In this document: positions 2,795 through 37,198 of the stretch, piece after piece | Layout of the letters: the number at the start of each line of letters is the position of its first letter | Position numbering within the stretch: position 1 is the first letter of the stretch | DNA from: a virus | Taxonomy: Duplodnaviria; Heunggongvirae; Uroviricota; Caudoviricetes | Virus record (IMG/VR): IMGVR_UViG_2778261644_000010 | Strand: one strand, 5' to 3' | DNA length: 37,198 nt | Made by a program: the position numbers and the translations under genes | Notes under the pieces: generated by a model | Seen by the model: the letters and a program-made list of their open reading frames with translations, nothing else | Database searches by the model: none | What the model was told of the DNA's origin: nothing

Positions 2795-5387
2795 TTGCAT
2801 ATTCCTTAGCCCAGCGGGGCAGTGATAATGTCTTAATAGCTGGCCATTCATCGGTATTCAGGCAGTCAGACAGGGTTCGCAGATTGCGGTGATATTCCTG
2901 TTGACCTGCCAGTTTTGCTTCTTCGCCCATCATGAAAATTTCAACCGGATAACGTCCGCATTCAATAGTTGTGCTGGCAACCAGAAAAACGAAAGTTGGC
3001 TGCACTCCAAACTGTGCTTCATAACCGTCACTGTAGAATGCATCCTGAACGTGATAGCGGTAGTCGTAATAAGCGGTTTTGAATCGTTGAATATCCGCCG
3101 TAGTTTTCACGTCCATGATCCAGTGAAATTCAGGGATAATTTTGTCCGGACGGCACCGACACAAAATTCCTGTTTCAGGATCTTCCCAGTAAATTGATGA
3201 TTCAGCGTGTCCGGCGCTTTCAACAAGCCATTGCCCCAGCGGCAAAGCCATAACGCTTTGATACATGAGTTCAATTTTCCGGCCTTCTTCCGCAGTGATA
3301 ACCGTTTTTCCTGTGCTTGCGCATTCCATCAGAAACGCTTTCTCTTCTTCTTTTCCGGCGTTTGTACGGCGGTTAAATTCAGGTGCTACGATAAAGCGGT
3401 TACTGAATTCCTCCGGTTCAAGTACCCGGCAGTGGAAAGCGGTTCCTAAATCGAGCGTTTTTGTCTTTGTGGTGTCCACGGGGGCATTTTTACGCCACAA
3501 ATATAGTGCCGGAGTATCAGCAATGTCATCGAGCTGAGACTTACTGACACCGGGACCCGCGTGGTAATTCTCATTCGAAATTCCGTAATAAATACCTGGC
3601 TCTATGTCTTCTACGATTACGGGATCTGCGACTTCTCCAGTTTCATCACTGCAATCGCGATGCGGATCGCTGCCAGCATTCTCATTGTGCGGATGTTCAG
3701 CGCCTTCCATTTCCTCCGGATCATTTTCCTTAGCTTCAACCTGACTCTCTTCATCGAATGTTTCCTGGTATGTTGCGTCGCCCATCACCGCACCACAGTC
3801 AGGGCAGTTATCCCCGCCAGTCTGGCCGCAGGCATTGCAGGCTATTTCCGGTTCCTGTTGCACTACTGGCTCAGGTTGATTCATATCCGGGCTGGTTTTT
3901 TCCGTTTCTGGCTGGTTCTGGTACACAGAATCGCGAGTCTGGATCCCCTTTACCCATTTCGGATCGTTCGGGTCGCTAATTCCGTCAACAAATTCACCAC
4001 GTGATGCAGCAAGCAATTTATCGGCATCGACAGGATTTTTTGATGGAATGTTTTTCCGGGCTTCATGGAGTTCTGCCCGCAGTTCCTGATATTTCGCATC
4101 AACAGAATTTACCTGTGACTGAGCATCCAGCGGCTGCGTGTCCTGATGATGTTCAGTTGCGTCCGGTTCCATTGTTTCAGCCTCTCCCTGTTCAACTGCC
4201 GTTGTTCCAGATGGTTGCGGTTTTTCTTCGTCATCCTGTTTTCCTTCTTCTGTTACTCGCTGCGGCATCGGGGCAGAGGAGCGACCGCAGGCAATATCCA
4301 CGATTTCCGGATCAGGGTTTGCATGATCGGTTTCAGTCAGTACTTTGTTCAGATATTCAGTGACGTGCGCGGGGATGACCTCGATCCCAATTGGTGCTTC
4401 TTTTACGGACGCAACCACGATGGCGCGGGAATAATCCAGCCCGCCAGGCATGGTGATGAATTTGTCGCGGAAAACAGAAAAGGGCGGTTTATTTTCAGCG
4501 ATAATTTCCTCAATGCGTTTAGCGTGTGCCGGATGAAGGTTATAGATGTCCAGATCCATTGAACGGGCCAGTACGCCAGTGGCTACGTCGCGCGCCAGTG
4601 ACGTCAGATCGTGTACGAAACCTTCGCCGCGATCGGTGAGGTTTCCGCCGCCAGCATTAGCACCGGAAGCCGTGCGAGTGATGTGTGAAACACGATTACC
4701 CTTCATCCACTCTTTTGTCAGCAGTCCTCGATCGGTGTAGTCAGCGTTCAGGTATGCTTCGAAAAAAGCAGTTATCAGTCCCAGGTTTGAATTACCAGGA
4801 TTAGGGAAAACTTTGTCAGTGTCACGAACCAGTTTGTGGAGATCGCGAATTTCCAGCGGGTCGAGCAGGCTGGTTTTGTGGGAAACAGCCAGGGCAGTAA
4901 CAGCCGGTAGTTCTTCAGCCCGAGCAATGTGTAATGCCTGGAGTCCGTCGCGTGAAACATGCGTTACCGGTTTTTCGCTGCCGTGTTGAGCAAGCCAGCG
5001 AATGGGCAGTTCCTGGCCAGAAATTGGGAGTAGCATATTCTCCTCAATCTCAGTCATGTCTTCGCCGTTGACGTTGGTATTGCCTTGATAGTGAGCGTTG
5101 TCTGGTGCTGCTCCCGGTTTTAGTTCCCATGTCATGGAGTCTTTGCTGAGTTGATAGCGTTCACTCCAGGTAAAATCGATCTCACCTTCAGCGGGCAGGT
5201 CATTAACGACAGGAAAATTCGTGGCAACAGCTTTAAAATAGCTGCTCAGTTTTTTACCTGACTTAACGATCAGGTAGTCCAGAGTGGCACAGGTCGATTC
5301 AAAATCGTCGCTTGCCCACAGGACGACGTCAGGTTCACCGGATGATTTTTTCGCTTTCCGTAACAGGAAGAGTGGTTTTGTGCTCAT
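2787..5387 (-). CDS. recE: Exodeoxyribonuclease VIII (RecE)
   Basis: 866-aa ORF with an acidic, Pro/Glu-rich central linker and a C-terminal nuclease domain. Length and position upstream of recT match RecE. Confidence 0.9.
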
Positions 5388-34139: not shown

Positions 34140-35102
34140 GTGAGTTCAGGTGCAAAGGTTATCTCGGCATTTATCCGGGAGACGGTTGCAGGCACTACGC
34201 CAGCAAGTGGTGACTGGAGTTTATTAAAACGCACAAGCTGGGGAGTAAAACCCACCCAGAATAAAGGCGAAAATAATGAGATTGGTGGCTCCCGGATGGC
34301 TCAGGGGGCGACGCCTGGCACTGTGGATGTCGGCGGTGATGTTGGTACCAAATTTCGCTGGGGTCAACATGATGATTTTCTTGCATCCTGTTTCGGCGCG
34401 GAATGGTCAGGCGATTCTCTGACAATGGGGAATGAGCGAATAACATTTTCTCTGGCGACCTATGCGTCCGATGTCGGAATTGCCTCTGTCGTCAGAGGAG
34501 CGCAGGTTGGCTCATGGAAAATGCAGATCCCTAACGACGGCGATATTACAGCGACCGTAACCTTTGCCGGACTGGACTGGGAATCAAAGGCCGATGATAC
34601 GAATTTTATCAAAGGCGAACCTGTGGATAGTGCAGGAAAGCTACGTTATTCGTTTAAGGAGGTTTCAGCAGTAAGCCTGAATGGTGTTGCCGGAGGTAAC
34701 GGTTTTTGTATCGACAGTTTTGATATTCAGTTCGATAACAAACTCCAGACACAGCGTTGTATCGGGACTGGCTCGCCTTATGCAGGAGCAAATATTCCGA
34801 CTACTTTTACACCGTCCGGTACGGTGACGCTTTCATGGTCTAAAGCCGCGTGGGAAATCTGGAGTAAAACACTGACTGGAGAAACAGTTCCGTTCAGCTT
34901 CACGCTTTCGAATGGAGAGGGGGCATACACTTTCAGTTTCCCGAAGGTTCAGGTGTCAGGTGAATGGCCTGATGGGGGTAATAGCGACATTATCCAGGTT
35001 CAATTGAGCATTACCGCAGCAGATGAAGCACCTACGATAACCAGAAAAAAAAATTCCCCGGCTGCCGTGATCGCAAAAGCCAGTGCTGAGGCGATTAGTT
35101 GA
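34140..35102 (+). CDS. Putative major tail (tube) protein
   Basis: 320-aa ORF with RBS GGAGG, directly upstream of the chaperone pair that carries the frameshift site. Confidence 0.6.
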   Translation: MSSGAKVISAFIRETVAGTTPASGDWSLLKRTSWGVKPTQNKGENNEIGGSRMAQGATPGTVDVGGDVGTKFRWGQHDDFLASCFGAEWSGDSLTMGNERITFSLATYASDVGIASVVRGAQVGSWKMQIPNDGDITATVTFAGLDWESKADDTNFIKGEPVDSAGKLRYSFKEVSAVSLNGVAGGNGFCIDSFDIQFDNKLQTQRCIGTGSPYAGANIPTTFTPSGTVTLSWSKAAWEIWSKTLTGETVPFSFTLSNGEGAYTFSFPKVQVSGEWPDGGNSDIIQVQLSITAADEAPTITRKKNSPAAVIAKASAEAIS

Positions 35103-35150: not shown

Positions 35151-35612
35151 ATGAGGTTATGGATGTTTATTCTTAATCAGAAAATTATCATTGGTGGAGA
35201 ACGCTGGTTTACGCCAATGAAGGACTTAAAACCTGTAGACGGGTTAAAACTGTTGGTGGCAAGCAGCGATAACGATCAGTATCGCTCCCGTAATGCATTA
35301 ATCCGTCGCCACATTGAGAAAATGGATGCCAGTTTGCACGTCGGAACGAAGGAGTTTGATATTTCAAAGGTTTCCGAGGTGGATTCTGTTGATGATTTAC
35401 TCATTGATAATGCCGCTCGTTATCTGCTGAAAGACTGGAAAGGGGTTGGTGAACTGGTTAATGGTGTTGAGGTTGCACTGGAATATACGGCAGAACGAGG
35501 GATCGCGCTGCTTAAGCAGAATCCAGAGTTGTACTGGCAGATCCTTGCAGAAGCAGCCAGCATCGCCCAGGGTAAAGAGCAGCAGAAGCAGGATACGATA
35601 AAAAAGCCATAG
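35151..35612 (+). CDS. Tail assembly chaperone (G-like, zero-frame product)
   Basis: 153-aa ORF ending ...DTIKKP with the slippery heptamer A_AAA_AAG at 35600-35606, positioned between tail tube and tape measure genes. Confidence 0.65.
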   Translation: MRLWMFILNQKIIIGGERWFTPMKDLKPVDGLKLLVASSDNDQYRSRNALIRRHIEKMDASLHVGTKEFDISKVSEVDSVDDLLIDNAARYLLKDWKGVGELVNGVEVALEYTAERGIALLKQNPELYWQILAEAASIAQGKEQQKQDTIKKP

Positions 35613-35920
35613 CTGCCCAGCGGTGGTTATCGGAGTTCGGGGGAGAAAGGGGGGAAAAGGCAAGATGGAAGCGAGAAAAACTCAGGTTGCCACCGATACC
35701 GGAACCAGAAATAGACCCGGTGCTTAAGGAGTTGTTGTACGCCTATTCGGTAATATCCCGTGCCCGACGTTATGCTGGAATGGCTGGGGTGCCTTTGCCT
35801 TTATCTCTGACAGAGATAAATGAATATTTAGCCACTCATCCGGTATTGATTGAGCGCGATGAATTTGAAGCAGTGATCTTTGCACTGGATGACCAGTATT
35901 TTCAGGAGCAGTGTGTGTAG
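35151..35920 (+). other. Predicted -1 programmed frameshift fusion of the tail assembly chaperone (G-T-like)
   Basis: Slippery site A_AAA_AAG at 35600-35606. The -1 frame (codons from 35606) is open with no stop through to the downstream ORF ending at 35920. Both ORF frames were checked modulo 3 (frame 0 to frame 2). Confidence 0.6.
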
Positions 35921-36085
35921 TTGTTAATTACGTACACTCTGTTACAGAGATGTGATGGTGTCTTTAATTAAATCGATGATGCTCCTGGAGAAAAGCATTG
36001 CGTGGCCTCGTAATCGCTATATCTACTATTATGTCGCCTGAAACCCACTTCGCGGTGGTTTTTTTGTTGTCAGGAGTTTTAATAA

Positions 36086-37198
36086 ATGGCAGAGCAAACC
36101 TCGCGTCTCGCAATAATTATTGATAGCACTGGAGCGAAAAATAATGCTGACAATCTGACCTCCTCATTAGTCAAAATGACGCAGGCTGGGGAAACTGCTG
36201 CAAATAGCGCAGGGAAAGTGACTAAGGCAACAGAAGATGAGAAGAACGCGCTCGCAAAATTAAAAGCAGCTATTGATCCAGTTGGTGCCGCAATTGATAC
36301 TGTCGGTCGACGCTATTCTGAATTAAAGAAATTTTTCGATAAAGGGCTTATTGATAAAGAAGAATATGAATTTCTTGTCCGTAAACTTAATGAAACCACA
36401 GAGGAATTGAGCGGGGTTGCGCAAGCGCAGAGAGAAGCCGAGAAGGCCGGAAAACTTGCTGCCGCCCAGCAGGAAGCGCAGGCTCAGGCCTTTCAAAGAA
36501 TGCTGGACAAGATCGACCCTCTGGCTGCGGCGCTAAGAAATCTTGAACAACAGCATGATGAACTTAATGCTGCGTTTGCATCCGGGAAAATAAATGGTTC
36601 TCAGTTTGAGAATTATAGCCGAAAAATACAGGAAACACGGCGAGAGCTTACCGGAGAGGCTCAGGCAGAGCGAGAAGCAGCAAAAGCGCATGATGAACAG
36701 GTTGTTGCTTTGCAACGTCTGATTGCTCAACTTGATCCTGTCGGAACTGCTTTTAATCGTCTGGTAGAACAACAGAAACAGCTCAATGAAGCAAAAGCTA
36801 AGGGGATGCTTTCTCCTGAAATGTATGAGGAGCTTTCTGGAAAACTTCGTGCTATGCGGAGTGAGCTTGAGGTTACTCAATCACAATTAAGCAAAACCGG
36901 AATGTCGGCAAAACAAACGGCTTTTGCTATGCGCATGTTGCCTGCACAAATGACGGATATTGTTGTTGGGTTGTCCACTGGTCAGTCGCCATTTATGGTG
37001 TTAATGCAGCAGGGCGGCCAGCTAAAAGATATGTTCGGTGGGATTGGCCCGGCGATCAAAGGTGTAGGTTCTTATGTGCTGGGATTAATTAATCCTTTTA
37101 CCCTGGCCGCAGCAGCCGTTGGGGTCTTAGGACTGGCTTACTATAAAGGCTCTCAGGAGCAGGACGAATTTAATAAATCTCTTATTCTTACCGGATGA
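36086..37198 (+). CDS. Tail tape-measure-like protein (reaches window end)
   Basis: Follows the chaperone frameshift pair. Long helical, Ala/Gln/Glu-rich repeats (for example [39 protein letters not shown]) and a hydrophobic Gly-rich C-terminus. A TGA sits at 37196-37198, so this may be complete or the first part of a split tape measure. Confidence 0.6.

What the first reader, a model, noticed from the sequence alone, without database searches (positions are those of the whole stretch)
35597..35700. Programmed -1 ribosomal frameshift site in the tail assembly chaperone (G/G-T-like)
The chaperone ORF ends ...GAT ACG ATA AAA AAG CCA TAG. The heptamer A_AAA_AAG (35600-35606) is a classic -1 slippery sequence, also used in dnaX and many phage G-T pairs. 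The -1 frame from 35606 is open without stops into the downstream ORF (ends 35920), which would give a fusion about 100 aa longer. This conserved translational device supports the identification of the flanking tail tube and tape measure genes.
Basis: partly seen in the sequence, partly recalled or inferred. Interest (0 to 1): 0.45.

Follow-up and report, generated by a model that had tools for sequence, protein, structure and literature searches.

The report
Tail chaperone G/GT frameshift site
This is an ordinary but real example of the programmed -1 ribosomal frameshift that long-tailed phages use to make a small amount of an extended tail-assembly chaperone; it sits in a Rac-like E. coli prophage whose public annotations miss it.

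Summary
A_AAA_AAG lies at 35600-35606 in the shift-prone phase (ATA AAA AAG CCA TAG), two codons before the stop of a 149/153-aa chaperone-like ORF. That ORF lies between the tail tube gene (34140-35102) and the tape measure gene (36086 onwards). The -1 frame is open from 35576 to 35917, so a slip would give a 252/256-aa fusion.

- In an ungapped alignment of 19 relatives from nine enterobacterial genera, third-position variability switches from the 0 frame to the -1 frame exactly at the heptamer.
- The 27 codons after it are conserved as -1-frame protein although no -1-frame start codon precedes them.
- The 0-frame stop moves (1, 7, 25 or 35 codons downstream), while the heptamer stays put.
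- The heptamer changes only between A_AAA_AAG and G_GGA_AAG, lambda's own motif.
- A distant homolog, Acinetobacter phage TRS1, carries G_GGA_AAG at the same place and has an annotated joined CDS.

I found no conserved downstream RNA structure. An upstream AGGA is a possible but unproven stimulator.

The mechanism is textbook. The only new point is that RefSeq and GenBank annotate this family, including ydaY in the E. coli K-12 Rac remnant, as separate genes. Interest is low.

The parts
34140..35102 (+). Tail tube (major tail) gene, upstream neighbour of the chaperone pair
   Evidence: Pfam Phage_tube_2 PF18906 E 9.4e-32, full-length match; phrog_290 E 3e-112
35163..35612 (+). G-like tail assembly chaperone ORF (0 frame), 149 aa. 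An alternative upstream ATG at 35151 would give 153 aa. PGAP calls a truncated 'YdaY' from GTG 35253.
35590..35593 (+). [quoted passage not shown]
   Evidence: Present at the same spacing in 16 of 19 aligned relatives and in TRS1. It falls within the 6-17 nt range used by Sharma et al. 2014 (PMC4066793). It is confounded by the conserved Gln-Glu/Asp coding, so its function is not shown.
35600..35606 (+). Slippery heptamer A_AAA_AAG in the shift-prone phase; predicted site of tandem -1 slippage of two tRNA-Lys
   Evidence: Read directly. Conserved or swapped to G_GGA_AAG in relatives. Its three 0-frame wobble positions are fixed or covary with the next two bases.
35576..35612 (+). Overlap window in which both the 0 and -1 frames are open; the shift must occur here
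   Evidence: -1 frame stop at 35573-75 and 0-frame stop at 35610-12
35606..35920 (+). T segment, 104 codons plus stop, read in the -1 frame only after the slip. PGAP annotates its distal part as a separate 'hypothetical protein' from TTG 35687.
   Evidence: Conserved as -1-frame protein from the first codon after the heptamer. No ATG/GTG/TTG before 35687. Pfam Phage_TAC_18 E 4.7e-4, below the gathering score, in 7 of 20 members. phrog_1189 E 1.4e-36; phrog_313 positions 173-246, E 0.0097.
35607..35633 (+). Local hairpin immediately 3' of the heptamer; probably not a stimulator
   Evidence: -11.3 kcal/mol, z -1.67, with 12 of 200 shuffles folding as well. Zero spacer. Not conserved in relatives: consensus fold -3.5 kcal/mol.
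36086..37198 (+). Start of the tape measure protein gene (runs off the window), downstream neighbour
   Evidence: Pfam TMP_2 PF06791 E 4e-47; phrog_3827 E 7e-135; RefSeq 'phage tail tape measure protein'

Best explanation

Most ribosomes translate the 0-frame ORF (35163-35612) and terminate at TAG 35610, giving the abundant chaperone G.

A minority slip. This happens when tRNA-Lys occupies the P site on AAA (35601-03) and a second tRNA-Lys occupies the A site on AAG (35604-06). Both slip back one base and re-pair with AAA (35600-02) and AAA (35603-05). Translation then continues with GCC at 35606 in the -1 frame to TAG 35918, giving a 252-aa G-T fusion (...QDTIKK|AIAAQRWLSEFGG...).

By analogy with lambda, the G part binds the tape measure protein and the T part recruits the tail tube protein. 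The fixed low ratio of GT to G is what the recoding is for.

Shown here: phase, open frames, synteny, family-wide conservation of the site, and the switch of coding frame at the site.

Inferred: the tandem-slippage mechanism; a low efficiency, probably a few percent or less, because no conserved downstream structure exists; and the division of labour between G and T.
For: 1. Anatomy. The heptamer is in phase, the overlap window is 37 nt, and the extension is 104 codons. It is the only one of 44 in-phase heptamers in the window's genes with a long -1 extension.

2. Synteny. The order is tail terminator, tube, G, T, tape measure.

3. Frame switch. The alignment of 19 sequences from nine genera is ungapped. 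Mean entropy of 0-frame third positions is 1.17 bits upstream (other positions 0.27 and 0.45). Downstream the peak moves to -1-frame third positions (1.04-1.42 bits). The change falls between alignment windows 136-165 and 151-180, and the heptamer is at columns 151-157.

4. The 27-codon linker 35607-35686 is 58-81% identical as -1-frame protein, against 23-38% in the 0 frame, at 53-71% nucleotide identity (divergent relatives). The first -1-frame start codon lies 27, 30, 38, 40 or 58 codons after the heptamer in different relatives, so there is no conserved initiation site.

5. The 0-frame stop moves (1, 7, 25 or 35 codons after the heptamer) while the heptamer position is fixed.

6. Nucleotide-level constraint. 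Wobble column 157 is G in 19 of 19 and column 154 is A in 18 of 19. Column 151 matches columns 152-153 in 19 of 19 (A with AA, G with GG). Only 4% of upstream wobble columns are invariant. The rare codons ATA/GTA and GGA are used to build the motif.

7. The only alternative motif is G_GGA_AAG, in Raoultella, Serratia and Pantoea. A_AAA_AAG and G_GGA_AAG are two of the three most efficient E. coli motifs and are nearly equal: 0.29 vs 0.28% alone, 4.3 vs 3.8% with IS911 stimulators, 39 vs 43% with the IS3 pseudoknot. In-phase A_AAA_AAG is strongly avoided in E. coli genes, z -10.1 (PMC4066793).

8. Distant homologs. In Acinetobacter phage TRS1 the T part is 39% identical. It has G_GGA_AAG at the aligned position and a joined ('j2') chaperone CDS in NC_031098.1. 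The phrog_313 profile is 258 positions long and covers both G (13-149) and T (173-246), which suggests that some members were deposited as fusions.
Against: - No protein, ribosome-profiling or reporter data; everything is comparative.
- No conserved downstream stem-loop or pseudoknot and no Rfam frameshift element. The bare heptamer gave only about 0.3% in a reporter (PMC4066793), so the efficiency could be very low.
- Some relatives have imperfect motifs at the same place: Pectobacterium L013 G_GGG_AAG, Pseudomonas phage Aurca01 G_GAA_AAG, Erwinia phage Gungnir39 C_GCA_AAG followed by TAA. A perfect heptamer is therefore not strictly required, or those copies are impaired.
- The T match to Pfam Phage_TAC_18 is below the gathering score.
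Confidence: 0.9

Rival explanations
1. The two ORFs are independent genes, as annotated in RefSeq and GenBank. T would be initiated on its own at TTG 35687 (or at 35735, as in phage SPF_0923), perhaps by reinitiation after termination at the G stop. The heptamer would be incidental.
For: PGAP annotates a separate 'hypothetical protein' from TTG 35687. The SPF_0923 record starts it at 35735. phrog_1189 exists as a stand-alone family for the distal T part.
Against: - The 27 codons upstream of TTG 35687 are conserved as -1-frame protein.
- The TTG is absent in most other genera; the first -1-frame start is 27-58 codons downstream and is not conserved.
- No convincing ribosome-binding site precedes 35687.
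- Wobble positions of the heptamer are constrained.
- A distant homolog is annotated as a joined CDS.
Confidence: 0.04
2. The frame change occurs at the RNA level. RNA polymerase would slip on the A6 run and add or drop an A in a fraction of transcripts, and the fusion would be translated normally from the edited mRNA.
For: The site contains six consecutive A residues. Transcriptional slippage on A runs is a known route to fusion proteins in IS elements and some bacterial genes (reviewed in PMC5009743).
Against: - Relatives replace the run by G_GGA_AAG, which has only three A. That preserves tRNA re-pairing but not a homopolymer.
- The covariation of column 151 with columns 152-153 is what P-site re-pairing predicts.
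- From general knowledge, efficient transcriptional slippage usually needs runs of about 9 or more.
- To reach the T frame, the transcript would have to lose one A or gain two.
Confidence: 0.03
3. It is a relic. The site was once a functional frameshift signal but does nothing in this particular copy, because the prophage is defective or silent.
For: The identical sequence survives in the cryptic Rac remnant of E. coli K-12. There the chaperone gene is N-terminally truncated and the tail module is broken. Some fetched loci have a truncated T (L038, L040, L055).
Against: - The window carries an apparently complete morphogenesis module with intact tube, G, T and tape measure start.
- A 99.9% identical region is in a deposited phage genome, Salmonella phage SPF_0923, and in other phage records.
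- The signal itself is intact either way.
Confidence: 0.03

Closest known systems
Bacteriophage lambda G / G-T tail assembly chaperone frameshift (Levin, Hendrix & Casjens 1993; Xu, Hendrix & Duda 2004, 2013, 2014; summarised in PMC5009743)
   Same: - Gene order is tube, G, T, tape measure.
- The -1 shift is near the 3' end of G, into an ORF that has no start of its own.
- The fusion is roughly 100 aa longer than G.
- No RNA structure appears to be required.
- Several members of this family use lambda's exact heptamer, G_GGA_AAG.
   Different: - There is no detectable sequence similarity to lambda G or T; the family is phrog_313 / PF27119 with a weak Phage_TAC_18 match.
- The heptamer here is A_AAA_AAG.
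- The tube protein is of the Phage_tube_2 type, and the head genes are P22-like.
- Efficiency and the G:GT ratio have not been measured.
Acinetobacter phage vB_AbaS_TRS1 tail assembly chaperone (TRS1_18/TRS1_19, NC_031098.1), annotated with a joined CDS
   Same: It is a true, distant homolog: the T part is 39% identical and the alignment is co-linear. The slippery site is at the aligned position and the shift is -1. The frameshift is already annotated in the record.
   Different: Its heptamer is G_GGA_AAG. Its 0-frame stop lies 26 codons after the heptamer instead of 1. The host and the phage lineage are different.
HK97-type tail assembly chaperones, and the E. coli prophage chaperone clusters found by frameshift screens (GeneTack cluster, 6-7% measured, PMC3711429; cluster A_AAA_AAG_25 / ECs1801 marked 'true' in PMC4066793)
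E. coli dnaX gamma/tau frameshift
   Same: It has an identical A_AAA_AAG heptamer decoded by the same tRNA-Lys, and an upstream Shine-Dalgarno-like element is possible in both.
   Different: From general knowledge, dnaX has a strong downstream hairpin and an AGGGAG 10 nt upstream. It shifts at about 50% and yields a shorter product. Here no conserved hairpin exists, the AGGA is closer to the heptamer, and the product is longer. This site works like dnaX at the tRNA level but is not a member of that family.

Membership tests
Phage G/GT-type tail assembly chaperone with programmed -1 frameshift | Located between the major tail (tube) gene and the tape measure gene | tested here: met
   Tube 34140-35102 (PF18906), G 35163-35612, T to 35920, tape measure from 36086 (PF06791)
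Phage G/GT-type tail assembly chaperone with programmed -1 frameshift | Second ORF overlaps the end of the first in the -1 frame and lacks its own conserved start codon and ribosome-binding site | tested here: met
   -1 frame open 35576-35917. The first start codon is TTG 35687, which is not conserved in relatives (27-58 codons downstream)
Phage G/GT-type tail assembly chaperone with programmed -1 frameshift | Canonical slippery heptamer in the correct phase inside the overlap, conserved in relatives | tested here: met
   A_AAA_AAG at 35600-35606. Of 97 loci, 93 have A_AAA_AAG, 3 have G_GGA_AAG and 1 has G_GGG_AAG. Wobble positions are constrained
Phage G/GT-type tail assembly chaperone with programmed -1 frameshift | Coding constraint passes from the 0 frame to the -1 frame at the slippery site | tested here: met
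   Phase of maximum variability switches at alignment columns 151-157. The linker is conserved as -1-frame protein
Phage G/GT-type tail assembly chaperone with programmed -1 frameshift | Sequence or structural relatedness of G to known tail assembly chaperones | tested here: inconclusive
Phage G/GT-type tail assembly chaperone with programmed -1 frameshift | Relatedness of the T segment to known chaperone T domains | tested here: inconclusive
   Phage_TAC_18 at 20.7 bits against a cutoff of 27; 7 of 20 family members match at E<0.01. Homologous to the T part of the annotated TRS1 fusion.
Phage G/GT-type tail assembly chaperone with programmed -1 frameshift | Both G and a minor G-T fusion protein are made, at a fixed low ratio | not testable with these tools
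   Needs a reporter assay, western blot or mass spectrometry
Phage G/GT-type tail assembly chaperone with programmed -1 frameshift | Both products are required for tail assembly and are absent from virions; G binds the tape measure and T binds the tube protein | not testable with these tools
   Needs genetics and biochemistry as done for lambda (PMC5009743)
dnaX-type frameshift signal (Rfam dnaX frameshifting element) | A_AAA_AAG heptamer | tested here: met
dnaX-type frameshift signal (Rfam dnaX frameshifting element) | Stable downstream stem-loop at 5-6 nt that stimulates shifting; match to the Rfam model | tested here: not met
   No Rfam match at E<=1. The local hairpin has zero spacer, is not significant and is not conserved.
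dnaX-type frameshift signal (Rfam dnaX frameshifting element) | Upstream Shine-Dalgarno-like element about 10 nt 5' of the heptamer | tested here: inconclusive
   AGGA lies 6 nt 5' of the heptamer (7 nt before its second base) in 16 of 19 relatives, but it overlaps the conserved Gln-Glu/Asp codons

The most novel reading that the evidence does not exclude
Within this one chaperone family the recoding site may work in more than one mechanistic mode at a fixed position.
- Classical tandem slippage on A_AAA_AAG or G_GGA_AAG in most members.
- Single-tRNA-Lys slippage on A_AAG in members whose P-site triplet cannot re-pair (Aurca01 G_GAA_AAG, Gungnir39 C_GCA_AAG).
- In Gungnir39 the AAG is followed directly by the stop codon TAA, so slow termination might replace an RNA structure as the pause signal.

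If so, the family would be a natural series for asking how little signal a G/GT shift needs. The copy in the K-12 Rac remnant would be an unannotated native recoding site in the reference E. coli genome.
Probability: 0.3. Interest if true: 0.35.

Novelty: new member of a known kind. Interest (0 to 1): 0.2.

Why it matters
The main consequence is for annotation. This prophage family is present in about one fifth of complete E. coli genomes (1074 of 5426) and in the K-12 Rac remnant. Public records nevertheless call the chaperone 'YdaY', with a truncated start modelled on the K-12 pseudogene. They call the T part a separate hypothetical protein or omit it. Recognising the G/GT pair gives three results:
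- It fixes two gene models.
- It names two 'hypothetical' proteins.
- It confirms the functional map of the tail module: tube, chaperone, tape measure.

It adds nothing new to the understanding of frameshifting, apart from a tidy comparative example of A_AAA_AAG and G_GGA_AAG interchange.

Tried and rejected
- **Downstream stimulatory RNA.** Single-sequence folds of 35600-35720 and sub-windows give z-scores near 0. The exception is a 27-nt hairpin at 35607-35633 (z -1.67, 12 of 200 shuffles as good) with no spacer. The consensus fold of 13 relatives gives -3.5 kcal/mol and 6 scattered pairs. Rfam gives no match at E<=1. I rejected it as a conserved stimulator.
- **Stop-codon proximity as a stimulator.** The stop is 1 codon after the heptamer here but 7, 25 or 35 codons after it in relatives. 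It is not conserved, so I rejected it as a general feature.
- **Other slip sites in the overlap.** There are none in the window. Some relatives (L072-L076, L008, L087, L090, L091) have an extra G_GGA_AAA 30 nt upstream in an open -1 frame. In the window that position is GGT AAA and the -1 frame is closed by TAA 35573, so it is not relevant here.
- **Literature.** A search for 'ydaY' returned nothing relevant to recoding. A search for the phage TRS1 frameshift returned only other papers that mention that phage; I did not open them.
- **ECs1801.** I could not check whether cluster A_AAA_AAG_25 / ECs1801 of Sharma et al. is this same family.

Full report
**1. Observation**

The window reads ...CAG GAT ACG ATA AAA AAG CCA TAG at 35589-35612.

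The ORF listed as 35151-35612 sets the phase. ATA is 35598-600, AAA is 35601-03, AAG is 35604-06 and the stop TAG is 35610-12.

In the -1 frame the last upstream stop is TAA 35573-75 and the next stop is TAG 35918-20. The two frames are open together for only 37 nt (35576-35612), and the heptamer is the only canonical slip site there.

A slip yields 152 + 104 = 256 aa. Counted from the more likely start at ATG 35163 it yields 252 aa. That start is preceded by GAGG at 35153-56 and is the start used by all homologs. In loci L077-L084 the upstream ATG is followed directly by a stop.

**2. Is it more than chance?**

The heptamer alone is not remarkable. AAAAAAG occurs 22 times on both strands, against 14.8 +/- 3.8 expected. 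About 37 plausible genes of the window contain 44 in-phase canonical heptamers.

Only this one opens a long alternative frame: 104 codons. Of the other 43 sites, only two would give a -1 product longer than the normal one, by 3 and 2 codons.

In-phase A_AAA_AAG is also strongly avoided in E. coli coding sequences (z = -10.1, Table S3 of PMC4066793).

**3. Context**

The window is a Rac-like prophage.
- The 1-kb region around the site is at least 99% identical in 768 complete E. coli genomes, and is present in 1074 of 5426.
- It is 99.9% identical to Salmonella phage SPF_0923.
- It is identical to the remnant in the cryptic Rac prophage of K-12, where the 0-frame ORF is ydaY (b1366) and the T ORF is unannotated.

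Upstream lie a P22-type capsid gene, a tail terminator (PF13554) and a tube protein (PF18906, E 9e-32). Downstream lies the tape measure gene (PF06791, E 4e-47).

The 0-frame ORF matches phrog_313 'tail assembly chaperone' (E 4e-46). The -1 segment matches phrog_1189 (E 1e-36), and weakly matches Pfam Phage_TAC_18 and the distal part of phrog_313. The phrog_313 profile is 258 positions long, the size of the predicted fusion.

None of the annotated records I examined for the close family joins the two ORFs. The Erwinia phage Gungnir39 and Pseudomonas phage Aurca01 records do not join them either.

**4. Comparative test**

I fetched 15 genomic and 80 viral loci with a profile of the G protein, plus annotated records.

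At the homologous position, 93 of 97 loci have A_AAA_AAG. Three have G_GGA_AAG (Raoultella L011, Serratia L014, Pantoea L015). One has G_GGG_AAG (Pectobacterium L013).

The 0-frame stop lies 1, 7, 25 or 35 codons after the heptamer, depending on the lineage. The -1-frame peptide A-x-E-A-Q-K-W-L-x-E-F-G-G-E-x-G-E-K-A-K-W-x-R-E-K-L-x-L-P-P-x-P-E-P-E-I-D is conserved from the very first codon after the heptamer.

An alignment of 19 non-redundant sequences is gap-free over 477 columns. It runs from 150 nt upstream to 320 nt downstream of the heptamer.
- Upstream, variability peaks at 0-frame third positions: 1.17 bits against 0.27 and 0.45.
- Downstream, it peaks at -1-frame third positions: 1.04-1.42 bits.
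- The switch falls between windows 136-165 and 151-180, and the heptamer is at columns 151-157.

In the 27-codon stretch 35607-35686, divergent relatives are 53-71% identical in nucleotides. As protein they are 58-81% identical in the -1 frame but only 23-38% in the 0 frame.

This stretch has no ATG, GTG or TTG in the -1 frame. The first such codon lies 27, 30, 38, 40 or 58 codons after the heptamer in different relatives.

A protein-coding segment with no conserved way to start, beginning exactly at a slippery heptamer, is the signature of a programmed frameshift.

**5. Constraint on the signal itself**

The three 0-frame wobble positions inside the heptamer are not free.
- Column 157 is G in 19 of 19 sequences.
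- Column 154 is A in 18 of 19.
- Column 151 is A whenever columns 152-153 are AA, and G whenever they are GG (19 of 19).
- Only 4% of the 50 upstream wobble columns are invariant.

Building the motif requires the rare codons ATA or GTA (Ile/Val) or GGA (Gly).

The two motifs seen, A_AAA_AAG and G_GGA_AAG, are two of the three most efficient in E. coli and have nearly equal efficiency (PMC4066793):

| Condition | A_AAA_AAG | G_GGA_AAG |
|---|---|---|
| No stimulator | 0.29% | 0.28% |
| IS911 stimulators | 4.3% | 3.8% |
| IS3 pseudoknot | 39% | 43% |

The swap keeps tRNA re-pairing but breaks the A run. That argues for ribosomal rather than transcriptional slippage.

**6. Distant relatives**

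A translated search of phage genomes finds both halves, always in two frames, in Klebsiella, Erwinia, Pseudomonas syringae and Acinetobacter phages.

Acinetobacter phage TRS1 has G_GGA_AAG at the aligned place (IVGK against our TIKK), with AGGA at the same upstream spacing. It carries a joined chaperone CDS in its RefSeq record. The frameshift has therefore already been recognised in the wider family.

Two others have imperfect motifs that still end in A_AAG: Aurca01 has G_GAA_AAG, and Gungnir39 has C_GCA_AAG followed directly by TAA. Whether these shift by single-tRNA slippage is open.

**7. Stimulators**

I found no support for a downstream RNA element.
- Folds are no better than shuffles, apart from a marginal hairpin with zero spacer at 35607-35633.
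- The consensus fold across relatives is negligible.
- Rfam has no match.

[quoted passage not shown] That is within the range that Sharma et al. accept for a stimulatory Shine-Dalgarno-like sequence. However, it coincides with conserved Gln-Glu/Asp codons, so I leave it as a candidate.

I therefore infer a low efficiency, by analogy with the lambda G:GT ratio of about 30:1 (PMC5009743) and the 6-7% measured for HK97-like prophage chaperones (PMC3711429).

**8. Structure**

**9. Verdict**

- Mechanism: tandem -1 slippage of two tRNA-Lys on A_AAA_AAG, giving a minor G-T fusion alongside abundant G.
- Inferred function: coupling the tape measure protein to tube polymerisation, as in lambda.
- Rivals: independent initiation of T, transcriptional slippage, or a dead relic. 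The data above contradict each of them.

This is a new, unannotated member of a very well-known kind, so interest is low (0.2). The practical yield is corrected gene models for a prophage family found in about a fifth of E. coli genomes, including K-12.

Noticed in passing
window 35046-35054 (inside the tail tube gene 34140-35102): There is an A9 homopolymer (in phase A_AAA_AAA_AAT) 16-19 codons before the tube gene stop. Among fetched loci 32 have A9, 6 have A8 and 5 have A7. In NZ_CP046006 the A8 form makes PGAP call the tube gene a 'frameshifted' pseudogene. A8 would only shorten and change the last ~18 residues. This could be sequencing error, real length variation or a slippage-prone tract.
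   Followed up: partly
window 35921-36085 (gap between the T stop and the tape measure start): A 165-nt gap holds a 28-codon ORF (35955-36041, MVSLIKSMMLLEKSIAWPRNRYIYYYVA). It is followed by a terminator-like hairpin with a T7 run (36045-36058 plus tail). In Raoultella (L011) and Serratia (L014) relatives the same slot holds a lipoprotein-like ORF (MKKTVMVAFVLLLAGC...). This looks like a moron insertion slot between the chaperone and tape measure genes.
   Followed up: partly
window 35151-35253; L101 (E. coli K-12) 3378-3981: RefSeq's 'YdaY' gene model (GTG 35253, 119 aa) is an N-terminally truncated version of the chaperone. It is copied from the K-12 Rac remnant, where the gene is cut and abuts the ParB-like ynaK. 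The full gene most likely starts at ATG 35163. K-12 also keeps the complete T ORF and the heptamer, unannotated, between ydaY and ynaA.
   Followed up: yes
L013 2920-2926; L098 around 1886-1892; L100 around 1985-1994: Some relatives have degenerate slip sites at the conserved position: G_GGG_AAG (Pectobacterium odoriferum prophage), G_GAA_AAG (Pseudomonas phage Aurca01), and C_GCA_AAG followed directly by TAA (Erwinia phage Gungnir39). They may shift by single-tRNA-Lys slippage on A_AAG, or be impaired.
   Followed up: partly
L072-L076, L008, L087, L090, L091 (30 nt upstream of the main heptamer): A second in-phase heptamer, G_GGA_AAA (Gln-Gly-Lys), lies in an open -1 frame 10 codons upstream of the main site in some relatives. 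In the window this position is GGT AAA and the -1 frame is closed by TAA 35573-75.
   Followed up: partly
protein P0001 (E. coli NB16F79_39920, 240 aa): This is a natural in-frame G-T fusion caused by a short deletion that removes the end of G (...LAEAGYDKKAIAAQRW...). That strain would make only the fused form.
   Followed up: no
window 35665-35727: A 20-codon ORF in the +1 frame starts at ATG 35665, just after a G-rich, Shine-Dalgarno-like tract (GGGGGGAAAAGG, 35649-35660). It is probably meaningless, since the G-rich tract encodes the conserved GGERGEK of the T linker.
   Followed up: no
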